Below, piece by piece: positions 24,893 to 30,570 of a stretch of DNA of 64,000 bases. The notes beneath the pieces are model-generated. The model had not been told where the DNA came from, ran no database searches, and worked only from the letters and a program-made list of their open reading frames with translations. Source of the DNA: Eledone cirrhosa (lineage: Eukaryota); the NCBI GenBank assembly GCA_964016885.1, contig OZ024742.1, forward strand, positions 269,452,001 through 269,516,000, given 5' to 3'. Positions within the stretch are counted from its first letter, which is position 1. Every line of letters starts with the position of its first letter. A program made the position numbers and the translations under genes.

Positions 24893-25935
24893 ATGAAAGA
24901 CGTAAAATAAGGAAATTTAAAGAAAAATTGAAAAAATTAACTTACTTACTAAAATTTTCACTCCAACTAATTAGTTTCTGTAATGGGATAAAGATAGTTA
25001 CGTAATATAACCATCGAGAATTCATTACGTCACCAGGGAGTCTATTCTCAGCTAAGTCTCCAGGCAATGCGCGGACACTGTGGACTCATATAAAAATAAT
25101 AATAATTCGGTAGATGGAACAGCTAGCGGGGGCTGGATTCCATGCACTGAAAAGTTCGCTGTCTCTGGTCAAATGGCAGATTCTAAAGAATCAATCACGT
25201 GACACTGAGGCTAGTCGGAAGGAGTGGGTTGGTAAGATGACAGAAGCCTACTACCACACCAATGAATTAGTAGTGGTTTTGGCAGGTTTGCTCAACAAAT
25301 AAATAATTTGGAGATAAATATAGAGAATTTAGTATATCTACCAACATATGCGTACAGATGTACACTAATGCTAGCAAATACATAAGTTATGTCATAGTAC
25401 CTAGGTGGTTCAATGCATGAGGATGCAGAACAATAATATGAAAGACGTAAAATAAGAAAATTTTTTTAAAAATTAAAAAAATTAACTTACTAAAATTTTC
25501 ACTCCAACTACTTAGTTTCTGTAATGGGGTAAAGATAGTTACGTAATATAACCATCGATAATTCTTTACGTCATCAGGGAGTCTATTCTCAGCTAAGTCT
25601 CCAGGCAATGGGCGGACACTGGGGACTCATATAAAGTGTCCGCGCATTGCCTGGAGACTTAGCTGAGAATAGACTCCCTGATGACGTAATGAATTCTCGA
25701 TGGTTATATTACGTAACTATCTTTATCCCATTACAGAAACTAATTAGTTGGAGTGAACATTTTAGTAAGTAAGTTAATTTTTTTAATTTTTTTTTTAATT
25801 TTCTTATTTTACGTCTTTCATATTATTGTTCTGCATCCTCCTGCATTGAACCACCTAGGTACTATGACATAACTTATGTATTTGCTAGCATTAGTGTACA
25901 TCTGTACGCATATTTTGGTAGATATACTAAATTCT
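24893..25935. mobile_element. HHR-bearing non-coding element: tandem of about 541 bp (minus) plus inverted copy
   Basis: HHRs at 24960-25041(-, CTGGTGA mutant), 25501-25582(-) and 25673-25754(+). Flanked by (TA)n. Confidence 0.85.
25673..25754 (+). ncRNA. Type-I hammerhead ribozyme, intact core
   Basis: ACTCC-CTGATGA-[GTAATG..CATTAC]-GAAAC-TAATTA-GTT^GGAGT. Confidence 0.82.
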
Positions 25936-27071
25936 CTCTCTCTCTCTCTATATATATATATATTTATATTTATATATATATATATATATATATATATATA
26001 TATATATATATATATATATATATATATATATAAATATATATATATATGTATACATATACATATATATGTATACATATACATATATATGTATACATATGCA
26101 TATATATATTATATATGTATATATATATATATATATATATATATATATATATATATATATATAATGTAGGAGGTGAGTTTTATTGTAGTACAATAAAGCA
26201 ATGCAGATATCGGATAAGAAGCACTCTACAGTTTGTGGGACTGGAGTATGCATAATATAAGATCAAAAGATGGTTAAAGGAGTTCAATATATTTTATTAT
26301 GCGCATTTCAAAAACAAACATCATCAAACAATAATATTTGTGTTTTCATCAGATAAAACAGGAGAACATGATATGAAGGCTAAAAAAACACTTGTTGATA
26401 GTGCAGTTTTAAATCAACATATGAAAAGTGGTTTTAGATTGATGTGTGATATTGGGAAAAATATTTTATTTAGAGAGGGGGGGGGAGAGAAAAGGATGAA
26501 AAGGGAAGGAGATGAGAGGGAGAGATGGGTGATAGAGAGAAAGAGATAGTTTTTATAACTGAGAGGAGATATATTTTATATAGAGGGGTTGAAAACCGTT
26601 GGAAGATACTGTATAAATTAAAAATTTTGAAAATTAACGAAGGGAGGATATGTGCGAGGAAAAAATATATTATATTTAGGGAGGGGGGGGGTGGAAAGGA
26701 TGAAAAAAAAGGGAGGAGATGAGAGTGAAGGTGGAAAGGGAGAGATGGGTGATAGAGAGAAAGAGATAGTTTTTATAACTGAGAAAAAGATATAATGTTT
26801 TAATATAGAGAGGTTGGGAACCGTTGGAAGATAATGTATAAATTAAAGGAATTTGAAAATTAACGAAGGGAAATTATGTATGAAGATAGAGAGAAAAAAA
26901 TAATAATTGTGGGTGAATATTCTAACGTCAAAAGAAGAAATGTAGGAATTTTAAAATTAGCGAAGAGAAAAAGTTTATGTGTAGAAGGATTTGAGAAAAA
27001 TAATGTGAGGTTAAAGTTTGTATATTGAATTCATATGTATTAATAATGAGTTCGTTGATGGGGAGAAAAAA

Positions 27072-27730
27072 ATAATAATAAATTAAGGATGAAATTGAGA
27101 TTAAAAAGATTTATGATAGAGAGAAAAAATAATAATGATTGCGGATGAATACTCAAAATGTCAAAAACAAATGTTATTGTTTTACGAGGAGATAGAATGA
27201 GGGTAATGAGTAAACGAGTATTATAGAGTGTATAATGCCCTTTAAAGTAAGGTAGATGGGTATATTTTAAAGAATATATGAGTATATATTAAAAAAATAT
27301 ATAATAATAAATTAAGGATGAAATTGAGATTAAAAAGATTTATGATAGAGAGAAAAAATAATAATGATTGCGGATGAATATTCAAAATGTCAAAAACAAA
27401 TGTTATTGTTTTACGAGAAGATAGAATGAGGGTAATGAGTAAACGAGTATTATAGAGTGTATAATGCCCTTTAAAGTAAGGTAGATGGGTATATTTTAAA
27501 GAATATATGAGTATATATTAAAAAAATATATAATAATAAATTAAGGATGAAATTGAGATTAAAAAGATTTATGATAGAGAGAAAAAATAATAATGATTGC
27601 GGATGAATATTCAAAATGTCAAAAACAAATGTTATTGTTTTACGAGAAGATAGAATGAGGGTAATGAGTAAACGAGTATTATAGAGTGTATAATGCCCTT
27701 TAAAGTAAGGTAGATGGGTATATTTTAAAG
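27072..27730. repeat. 229-bp tandem repeat (about 2.9 copies) in the PLE 3' UTR
   Basis: ataataaattaaggatgaaattgag occurs at 27075, 27304 and 27533. Confidence 0.9.
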
Positions 27731-28981
27731 AGGTGTATGTATATGTGCCTTTGAGAAAAGATTCTAAATTGATAAAGAATTGAATATTAACTGTATACTT
27801 TGTGAAAAGTTCTATGGAATTTATGCAGGCAGATAGAAAACACATCTGAGCGTCTATTTATTATGGATTCTAGGTTAGAGATAATGGCAAATTTTTCATT
27901 TAGGCAGAGATTACAGATTTTAGATAGAGAGCTGTTCAAGTATGAGGATGCAGAAGAAATCTTTTTCCAAAAGATGTTATATTTAATGTTTTTGTCTTTT
28001 AAGGACCATATGAGTTCTGAGAGAGCAGTGTTAGTTCTTTGAAGTTTGTATTTGAAAGATGAATGATGATTATAGAGACGAGCTTTAAAAGAGGTGGGCA
28101 TTATACATTATACACTCTATAATACTCGTTTACTCATTACCCTCATTCTATCTCCTCGTAAAACAATAACATTTGTTTTTGACATTTTGAGTATTCATCC
28201 GCAATCATTATTATTTTTTCTCTCTATCATAAATCTTTTTAATCTCAATTTCATCCTTAATTTATTATTATTTTTTTCTCCCCATCAACGAACTCATTAT
28301 TAATACATATGAATTCAATATACAAACTTTAACTTCACATTATTTTTCTCAAATCCTTCTACACATAAACTTTTTCTCTTCGCTAATTTAAAAAATCCTA
28401 CATTTCTTCTTTTGACGTTAGAATATTCACCCACAATTATTATTTTTTTCTCTCTATCTTTATACATAATTTCCCTTCGTTAATTTTCAAATTCCTTTAA
28501 TTTATACATTATCTTCCAACGGTTCCCAACCTCTCTATATTAAAACATTATATCTTTTTCTCAGTTATAAAAACTATCTCTTTCTCTCTATCACCCATCT
28601 CTCCCTTTCCACCTTCACTCTCATCTCCTCCCCTTTTTTTCATCCTTTCCACCCCCCCCTCCCTAAATATAATATATTTTTTCCTCGCACATATCCTCCC
28701 TTCGTTAATTTTCAAAATTTTTAATTTATACAGTATCTTCCAACGGTTTTCAACCCCTCTATATAAAATATATCTCCTCTCAGTTATAAAAACTATCTCT
28801 TTCTCTCTATCACCCATCTCTCCCTCTCATCTCCTTCCCTTTTCATCCTTTTCTCTCCCCCCCCTCTCTAAATAAAATATTTTTCCCAATATCACACATC
28901 AATCTAAAACCACTTTTCATATGTTGATTTAAAACTGCACTATCAACAAGTGTTTTTTTAGCCTTCATATCATGTTCTCCT

Positions 28982-29050
28982 GTTTTATCTGATGAAAACA
29001 CAAATATTATTGTTTGATGATGTTTGTTTTTGAAATGCGCATAATAAAAT
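28982..29050 (+). ncRNA. Type-I hammerhead ribozyme, intact core (mirror copy at 26291-26359, minus)
   Basis: GTTTTAT-CTGATGA-[AAACACAAATATTA..TGATGTTTGTTTTT]-GAAAT-GCGC-ATA^ATAAAAT. Confidence 0.8.
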
Positions 29051-29120
29051 ATATTGAACTCCTTTAACCATCTTTTGATCTTATATTATATATATATATA
29101 TATTATATATATATATATTA

Positions 29121-29310
29121 GGGCGGTGAATTGGCAGTATCGGTAGAGGGTTGGACGCCATGCTTTCTAGCATAGTTACGTCCCTTTACTGTCTGAGTTC
29201 AAATCCCGCCGAGGTTAACTTTGCCTTTCATCCTTACGGGGTCGATAAAATAAAGTACCAGTAATGTACTGGGTAATTGCTGGCCTTGTGCCTAAAGTAG
29301 GAACAATTAT
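29121..29310 (+). mobile_element. Full-length tRNA-derived SINE
   Basis: A-box-like TGGCAGTATCGG, B-box GAGTTCAAATCCC and a conserved core. Other copies at 38925-39106, 23690-23748, 39657-39716 and 60576-60673. Confidence 0.88.
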
Positions 29311-29514
29311 ATATATATATATATATATATATATACATATATATATATATATAAATATATATACATATATATATATAAATATATATACATATTTATATGC
29401 ATGTATGTATGTATGTATGTATATATATATAAATATATATACATATTTATATGCATGTATGTATGTATATATATATATATATATATATATATATATATAT
29501 ATATATATATATAG

Positions 29515-30570
29515 TAATAATAATAAATTTGAAGACTAAAATCCAAAGAGGCTTCGATAAGGATAAGCACCGATTCTTTGCTTAAACTACAATCTATTAT
29601 TTTAATAAATATATATAAAGAATTAGTATATCTACGAACATATATATACACAGATGTATACCTATGCAAGCAAATATATAGGTTTTGTCTTTGCAACTTT
29701 GTGGTTCAATGTATGGGGATGCAGAACAATTATATCAAAAACGTACAAGAAAATTAAAGTAATTAGCTTACTTATTTAAATTTCACTCCAACTAATTAGT
29801 TTCTGAAAGGGAATATACATAGTCTCCAAATGGAGATCATGGAGAAACCTTTTCGTCATCAGGGAGTCATTATCAGCTAAGAGACCTTGCGATGCGTGGA
29901 CATAGGGAACTTATACAAACATATTCAGTGGATTGAAAAGAGCAAGCGGGGACTAAATTCCAAGACACTGAAAAAAATCACTGCGTTTTTGTTCGGTGGC
30001 AAATTCAAAAGAATCAATCACGTGACATCGAGGTTAATCAGTAAGGAGCGGGGTGCTAAAAAGACAGTAGCCAAGCTGTTATTATTTTACGTTTTTCATA
30101 TAATTTTTCTGCATCCCCTTGCATTGAACCACCAAGTTACTAAGACAAAACCTATATATTTCCGTGCATAGGTATACATCTGTGTATATATATATGTTGG
30201 TAGATATACTAATTCTTTATAATTATCTCCAAATTATTTTGTTGAGCAAAAATTTGCCAAAATTACTACTATAGTTCATAGTAACAGCTTGGCTACTGTC
30301 TTTTTAACACCCCACTCCTCACTGATTAACCTCGATGTCACGTGATTGATTCTTTTGAATTTGCCACCGAACAAAAAGGTAGTGATTTTTTCAATGTCTT
30401 GGAATTTAGTCCCCGCTTGCTCTTTTCCATCCACTGAATATTTTTGTATAAGTTCCCTGTGTCCGCGCATCGCCAGGTGTCTTAGCTGATAATGACTCCC
30501 TGATGACGAAAAGGTTTCCCCATGATCTCCATTTGTAGACTATGTATATTCCCTTTCAGAAACTAATTAT
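29515..30570. mobile_element. Fold-back HHR element related to the 24893-25935 family
   Basis: Intact HHR at 29785-29867(-). The inverted arm 30082-30569 is circularly permuted and ends in stem III. Confidence 0.82.

What the first reader, a model, noticed from the sequence alone, without database searches (positions are those of the whole stretch)
24893..30570. HHR monomer family of about 540 nt with covarying stem II and circular permutation
Two loci share ACTCC-CTGATGA...GAAAC-TAATTA-GTT^GGAGT, but stem II differs compensatorily: GTAATG/CATTAC versus GAAAAGG/CCTTTC. Locus 1 is a head-to-tail tandem (HHRs 541 bp apart) plus an inverted arm. In locus 2 the arm 30082-30569 reads tail then head then HHR, crossing the monomer junction. 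This is what copying from a circular or multimeric RNA would give (inference).
Basis: partly seen in the sequence, partly recalled or inferred. Interest (0 to 1): 0.78.

Follow-up and report, generated by a model that had tools for sequence, protein, structure and literature searches.

The report
Hammerhead retrozyme with Penelope-type insertion ends
This is a non-coding repeat of about 540 bases, present in thousands of copies, that carries a predicted self-cutting RNA (hammerhead ribozyme) and inserts with the end pattern of Penelope-type jumping genes, which likely copy it; the class is known, but its very regular ends offer a clean test of how such elements insert.

Summary
The repeat and its hammerhead are real. 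The HHR core has 5,511 exact genome matches (0 in the reversed control), the unit is 510-590 nt, and there are 8 subfamilies. Stem II covaries, but only one pair is compensatory between the two window loci; the other is A·C. Random circular permutation is not supported. 3' ends sit at two fixed sites, about +70 and +187 nt after the predicted cut (138 of 156 arms in two samples), and abut (TA)n; only 5' ends vary. Every head-to-head insertion with two canonical ends pairs one +70 arm with one +187 arm (46 of 46). An ORF-bearing Hydra-clade Penelope-like element in the same genome shows the same short/long rule (16 of 19 by script). Verdict: a non-LTR retrozyme, likely integrated in trans by Penelope-like RT/endonuclease priming both target strands. 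Arms read through the cut site and tandem units are near-identical at insertion, so the template must supply multimers; a circle is plausible but untested, as no RNA run was listed. No parent element was found. New member of a known class, with a useful mechanistic handle.

The parts
24891..25635 (-). Locus 1, long arm: unit positions 412-541, one full unit, then 1-70; 3' end at site S1 (+70) into (TA)n
24965..25505 (-). One cut-to-cut unit, 541 nt, 36% GC, no PLE coding similarity
24960..25041 (-). HHR copy a; core CUGGUGA (A6 changed, likely inactive by recalled HHR rules); predicted cut GUU^ between 24965 and 24964
25501..25582 (-). HHR copy b; stem II mismatch and broken stem III palindrome
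25635..25937 (+). Locus 1, inverted arm: unit positions 427-541 then 1-184; 3' end at site S2 into CT/(TA)n
25673..25754 (+). HHR copy c, intact type I: 5-bp stem I, 6-bp stem II with a hairpin extension, C·A at its base, 12-nt palindrome AACUAAUUAGUU as stem III
25877..25926 (+). Conserved 23-pair hairpin between end sites S1 and S2 (the tail); candidate RT-binding element (inferred)
29614..30085 (-). Locus 2, left arm (other subfamily, about 76% identical to locus 1): unit positions 230-524 then 1-173; 3' end at S2
29785..29867 (-). HHR copy d, intact core; stem II GAAAAG/CCUUUC with A·C at pair 5
30082..30569 (+). Locus 2, inverted arm, unit positions 38-521. It ends 3 nt before the cut site at TAATTA|(TA)n; the expected S1 end is missing, likely a later deletion into the TA array
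24790..24894 (.). (TA)n target array, left of locus 1
25949..26163 (.). (TA)n target array, right of locus 1
30568..30604 (.). (TA)n target array, right of locus 2
26164..29094 (.). Not this family: a separate Penelope-like insertion with head-to-head arms, its own minimal HHR, one short and one long end, and a GIY-YIG remnant at 27805-28089(-)

Best explanation
A high-copy, non-coding unit of 510-590 nt with a predicted type I hammerhead (a non-LTR retrozyme) that is likely copied into (TA)n arrays in trans by the reverse transcriptase/endonuclease of a Penelope-like element, likely of the Hydra clade. Shown: tandem units, two fixed 3' ends flanking a conserved hairpin, variable 5' ends, and head-to-head arms that pair one short end with one long end. 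Inferred: tandem copies are transcribed; two hammerheads pair through the 12-nt palindrome and cut out unit-length RNA, which would circularise. The PLE protein would bind the tail hairpin and cut both strands of a TA array, then prime one strand at +70 and the other at +187, running through the ribozyme junction for a variable length. The two cDNAs would join by 0-4 nt microhomology, or one is lost. My odds per step: retrozyme with PLE-type integration about 0.9; two-strand, two-site priming about 0.75; circular template about 0.55.
For: Copy number and control. Covariation: stem II pair 2 is the top pair of 17,676 variable column pairs on a tree (100% paired, 3 Watson-Crick types, 2 double changes; only 2 pairs reach 2); 0 of 500 shuffles reach the score. 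Tail hairpin 92.7% paired versus 19-53% when slid, with 4 pairs changed on both sides. Fixed 3' ends 102 of 114 and 36 of 42, against 5' ends in the same windows 6 of 114 and 4 of 42. One-of-each pairing 35 of 35 (p = 2.9e-11) and 11 of 11; left/right 19 vs 16. The 5' ends of paired arms are uncorrelated (n = 44, KS p = 0.49). An ORF-bearing PLE with RWR, DKT, CxCx5C, CxxC and CxH motifs (Hydra features) has intact 758-aa frames, 30,315 HHR matches, TA targets and the same short/long rule. In vitro, a PLE protein cuts and extends both strands and starts at two internal sites that define the tail (PMC11167929). Multimer-capable template: 87 of 102 arms pass the cut site and 43 of 114 exceed 600 nt; direct units diverge no more than inverted arms (0.017 vs 0.021); 9 locus-private alleles are shared by consecutive units and no position-specific differences recur.
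Against: No autonomous element sharing the unit's sequence was found in 46 PLE loci or by two relaxed HHR patterns, and the end-site sequences differ from the Hydra element's. The tail is about 117 nt, against 30-40 nt in published PLEs and about 70 nt in the Hydra element. No Rfam hammerhead model hits, even at E ≤ 10. C·A at the base of stem II and a predicted alternative fold 2.5 kcal/mol more stable leave cleavage unproven. HHR cleavage was dispensable in vitro for PAc, and 8 of 9 Xenopus retrozymes did not cleave. The read-through counts are inflated because loci were picked for holding an HHR. The two end sites are TA-like, so the exact ends are blurred by a few bases. Window locus 1 itself has a near fold-back junction (412/427).
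Confidence: 0.65

Rival explanations
1. Same PLE-type integration, but the template is a linear read-through multimer or a monomer re-entered by template jumps; the hammerhead is a passenger or acts late.
For: HHR mutants did not reduce insertion by PAc in vitro. A weak excess of 5' ends lies just after the cut site (6 vs 1.9 expected, p = 0.013 uncorrected over 10 bins). DNA data cannot tell a circle from jumps.
Against: Pure linear copying can only shorten arrays, yet there are 4-5-unit arms with units 0-1 differences apart and private alleles shared between units. The HHR is conserved across subfamilies 72-88% identical. Related retrozymes accumulate as circles (PMC7229834 section 14).
Confidence: 0.25
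2. Head-to-head arms arise by fold-back self-priming on an antisense transcript, as proposed for rotifer Penelopes (PMC3846280).
For: The locus 1 junction is a near-perfect hairpin with a 14-nt loop; the model is in print.
Against: The 5' ends of paired arms are 134 nt apart on average (uniform expectation 135), and 1 of 44 are within 20 nt. Fold-back does not explain one S1 plus one S2 end.
Confidence: 0.04
3. One reading: copies are randomly permuted products of free priming on a circular RNA.
For: Arms read through the unit junction and 5' ends are scattered.
Against: 138 of 156 arm 3' ends lie in two windows that cover about 5% of the unit.
Confidence: 0.02
4. The units are pLTR remnants of an unseen autonomous PLE, or a satellite amplified at the DNA level.
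For: One 17-unit array has units 1-2 differences apart, which points to DNA-level duplication. Li et al. propose local tandem amplification of pLTRs.
Against: Upstream of a unit lies another unit, not an ORF, and tblastn shows no ORF continuous with an arm in 160 loci. Copies are dispersed, each with its own insertion ends; even the long array has an S2 end and a short inverted arm.
Confidence: 0.04

Closest known systems
Metazoan non-LTR retrozymes (Cervera and de la Peña 2020, PMC7229834; Li et al. bioRxiv 10.64898/2026.07.22.740005)
   Same: Non-coding, low-GC tandem units each with a type I HHR; thousands of copies; strongly self-paired; co-occur with PLEs; a palindromic weak stem III suggesting dimer cleavage.
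   Different: The unit is longer than the 170-400 nt invertebrate examples (inside Li et al.'s 51-972 bp range). Stem II is extended, with a C·A at its base, and Rfam misses it. The passages read do not describe fixed paired 3' ends or inverted arms for retrozymes. Cleavage and circles are not shown here.
EN+ Penelope-like elements, Hydra clade (Craig et al. 2021, PMC8557442) and PAc (Frangieh et al. 2024, PMC11167929)
   Same: Partial tandems, 5' truncation, a head-to-head inverted arm, a tail at one end only, two ends 3' of the HHR with a stem-loop between, and (TA)n targets.
   Different: No RT/EN ORF; tail about 117 nt rather than 30-40; no sequence-related parent found.
Non-autonomous Chlamys PLEs such as MRC1 (PMC8557442, passage)
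   Same: Non-autonomous, multicopy head-to-tail insertions driven by a PLE.
   Different: Those lack a canonical HHR and share 3' sequence with their autonomous partners.

Membership tests
Non-LTR retrozyme | Type I HHR core with stems I-III in each unit | tested here: met
   97% of cells paired over 14 pairs in 53 copies. Stems I and III were partly fixed by the search pattern, but are also kept in copies picked by another motif.
Non-LTR retrozyme | At least two consecutive tandem units with a complete HHR | tested here: met
   Met for the family (for example 3 and 4 consecutive exact matches on C1); both direct HHRs in window locus 1 are mutated.
Non-LTR retrozyme | Short, low-GC, non-coding unit without LTR organisation | tested here: met
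   510-594 nt, GC 0.34-0.36, no tblastn hit to the PLE protein; longer than the 150-450 bp of the 2020 paper.
Non-LTR retrozyme | Highly self-paired unit RNA | tested here: met
   Circular MFE z -3.5 to -6.7 for 5 of 5 units tried, only 12 shuffles each; the antisense strand folds about as well.
Non-LTR retrozyme | Self-cleavage | not testable with these tools
   Needs an assay.
Non-LTR retrozyme | Accumulates as unit-length circular RNA | not testable with these tools
   No RNA holder listed.
Canonical type I HHR | Loop 1-loop 2 tertiary contact | not tested
   In a circle loop 1 is the rest of the unit; not examined.
Rfam hammerhead families | Score at the gathering threshold | tested here: not met
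   No hit.
Autonomous Penelope-like element | RT plus GIY-YIG ORF | tested here: not met
   not filed as an autonomous PLE.
PLE-mobilised non-autonomous element | 5' truncation, head-to-head inverted arm, tail on one end, microsatellite target | tested here: met
PLE-mobilised non-autonomous element | Sequence homology to the pLTR of an autonomous PLE | tested here: inconclusive
   None in 46 loci of two PLE families; many other Hydra-like families (28-48% aa identity) were not examined.

The most novel reading that the evidence does not exclude
A ribozyme-made RNA circle is copied in trans by an asymmetric Hydra-clade PLE dimer that always primes the two target strands at two different sites flanking a hairpin. 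The 46-of-46 rule would be the genomic footprint of that asymmetry, and direct evidence for how animal retrozymes move and how PLE inverted repeats and one-sided tails arise.
Probability: 0.4. Interest if true: 0.68.

Novelty: new member of a known kind. Interest (0 to 1): 0.45.

Why it matters
Which enzyme moves animal retrozymes, and how Penelope-like elements make inverted arms with a tail on one side, are both stated as open in the papers read. This family supplies thousands of short, young insertions with a strict end rule shared with an intact Hydra-type element in the same genome. That names a candidate enzyme, a template, two start sites and a hairpin to test. It also shows a high-copy hammerhead variant that Rfam misses.

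Tried and rejected
Rfam: no hammerhead hit at gathering or at E ≤ 10. RNA: no RNA holder listed; two contig runs of unrecorded type were laid and show only that the family is present; neither bears on expression. Parent search: none found; both relaxed patterns returned mostly deletion variants of the same family (34 and 33 matches). The nearest-other-locus test of within-insertion identity was uninformative, because young consensus-like copies bias the minimum. The constrained-fold energies were misregistered and are replaced. One chimeric monomer (L098p2860) was dropped from 54 before the alignments. An apparent cluster of S2-arm 5' ends near +55-80 (10 of 68, my count) is post hoc and TA-biased; I did not use it. 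Pfam gave no useful name for the PLE fragments. Earlier scan findings: three look-ups, nothing shown. R-scape is not available; a tree-based count and shuffles were used instead.
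Full report
Setting. The window lies in a 3.0-Gb assembly, is AT- and microsatellite-rich and holds mostly transposon remnants. My impression that the host is an octopus-like cephalopod is recalled, not tested.

Observation. Numbering from the predicted cut (GUU^GGAGU), the unit in locus 1 is 541 nt. Locus 1 is a minus arm (positions 412-541, 1-541, 1-70) joined head-to-head to a plus arm (427-541, 1-184), between (TA)n arrays. Locus 2 belongs to another subfamily, about 76% identical: a minus arm (230-524, 1-173) and a plus arm (38-521). Of five HHR copies, two are intact (c, d), two are mutated (a, b) and one is cut off by (TA)n (e). The plus arm of locus 2 does not cross the HHR junction. 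The 2.9 kb between the loci is a different element.

Family. The HHR pattern has 5,511 exact matches and the reversed control 0; a 19-nt internal motif has 7,639. Of 54 cut-to-cut units, one was chimeric and dropped; the other 53 are 510-594 nt in 8 clusters 72-88% identical. They show no coding similarity to the PLE protein.

Ribozyme. The core is CUGAUGA-C-stem II-A-GAAA with a 12-nt palindrome as stem III (self-duplex -10.8 kcal/mol). In 53 copies, 97% of cells pair; stem II pair 2 is UA/CG/AU and pair 5 is UA/GC with 8 unpaired. Stem II was not fixed by the search pattern. On a tree of the 53 units, pair 2 ranks first of 17,676 column pairs; 47 pairs have one or more double change and 2 pairs have two. 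The signal rests on few independent events. Stem I varies compatibly in copies chosen by another motif. The monomer's hammerhead fold is 2.5 kcal/mol above an alternative fold that buries the core, which fits dimer activation as described for palindromic stem III motifs (PMC4209133, passages). Rfam misses it. A second conserved structure, a 23-pair hairpin at about +125-172, is 92.7% paired with 4 pairs changed on both sides; the structure was derived from these sequences, so the slide control flatters it.

Ends. Sample 1 is 68 non-overlapping loci from the first 100 of 5,511 pattern matches (all on C1; 9 overlapping loci dropped), with 114 arms. The 3' ends fall 49 at +60-74, 53 at +180-193 and 12 elsewhere; 5' ends fall in those windows 6 times; 102 of 114 have TATATA within 30 nt downstream. 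Of 44 head-to-head insertions, 35 have two canonical ends and all 35 are S1+S2 (p = 2.9e-11); none is S1/S1 or S2/S2. Sample 2 is 27 further loci from the first 100 of 7,639 matches to the internal motif: 36 of 42 arms canonical, and 11 of 11 fully canonical pairs (of 15 pairs) S1+S2. The short end is left or right equally often (19 vs 16), and paired arms had the same best subfamily in 41 of 44. Paired 5' ends are uncorrelated (KS p = 0.49), and 26 of 44 junctions are blunt or overlap by 1-4 nt. The length-biased top-hit sets look the same.

Partner. A remnant at 11104-12892 is 92% identical to intact frames of about 758 aa elsewhere that carry RWR, DKT, CxCx5C, CxxC and CxH, the Hydra-clade features of PMC8557442 section 11. 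Its own minimal HHR lies upstream of the ORF on the coding strand and has 30,315 exact matches. Its ends lie about +12-25 and +89-93 nt 3' of that HHR. Of 21 loci picked as head-to-head pairs, 19 parsed: 16 short+long by script, and the other 3 also look short+long by eye but have a non-TA flank. The element at 26164-29094 also has one short and one long end. So the rule belongs to PLE-type integration in this genome. No PLE examined shares sequence with our unit (the one strong hit, L145, is a neighbouring copy of the unit), so the exact partner is not identified.

Template. 87 of 102 canonical arms run past the cut site, 43 of 114 exceed 600 nt and 5 exceed 1,100 nt (inflated by selecting for an HHR), so a cut linear monomer read once is not the template. 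Direct units diverge 0.017 and inverted arms 0.021 (54 and 55 non-independent comparisons). Nine locus-private alleles in 6 loci are shared by consecutive units and 48 are in one unit only; no difference between internal and terminal tails recurs more than twice in 25 arms. A monomer-to-multimer step is therefore needed; rolling round a circle is simplest, but template jumps or DNA-level homogenisation are not excluded. A 17-unit array shows some DNA-level duplication. No RNA data were available.

Literature. PMC11167929 (parts 1-2 of 4): a PLE protein cuts and extends both strands of AT-rich DNA and starts at two internal sites that bound the tail; HHR cleavage is not needed in vitro. PMC8557442 (passages and section 11): partial tandems, inverted arm, tail at one end. 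PMC7229834 (passages and section 14): retrozymes accumulate as circles; PLEs are the proposed mobilisers. bioRxiv 10.64898/2026.07.22.740005 (parts 1-3 of 5): retrozymes are related to PLE pLTRs; no mollusc sampled. PMC3846280 (passages): self-priming model. PMC13282606 (passages): an octopus repeat annotation with no mention of hammerheads. PMC6962438 (passages): 235 Rfam hammerheads in giant squid. Six searches (listings only) showed no description of this family or of a strict pairing rule. Supplements were not read, Repbase and Dfam could not be searched, and most subscription papers are outside the library, so the family may already be catalogued.

Verdict. A real non-LTR retrozyme family with Penelope-type integration ends. 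New member of a known kind; interest 0.45, for the testable end rule.

Noticed in passing
window 26164-29094: Penelope-like insertion with 99%-identical head-to-head arms, a 229-bp tandem, its own minimal HHR with a palindromic stem III, ends about +40 and +130 nt after the predicted cut, and a GIY-YIG remnant (E = 1.7e-7).
   Followed up: partly
window 11104-12892 (-); G000 loci L161-L176: Hydra-clade PLE remnant; the family has intact frames of about 758 aa and 30,315 HHR matches, including many very short head-to-head copies in (TA)n.
   Followed up: partly
window 12960-13390: Short head-to-head inverted element in (TA)n, unrelated in sequence; likely another PLE end.
   Followed up: no
window 52832-53707, 56697-57630, 19764-19886, 48633-48848: Further Hydra-like PLE remnants; HHR-like motifs near 56055(+), 58811(-) and 46660(-).
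   Followed up: partly
L151-L152 (G000:C2:226.739-226.748 Mb): Array of about 17 units with one canonical S2 end and a short inverted arm; some units are only 1-2 differences apart.
   Followed up: yes
window about 25195-25205 and 25475-25490: A CACGTG box and a GTAAGT motif just after the HHR are conserved in all subfamilies; possible promoter and splice-donor signals (motif names recalled).
   Followed up: no
window 24245-24770: Unclassified repeat between two (TA)n arrays, with a degenerate HHR-like stretch.
   Followed up: no
window 30820-32070, 62608-63804: Non-LTR retrotransposon RT remnants (R4/Dong-like by recall; weak Pfam RVT_1 hit for 62608-63801).
   Followed up: no
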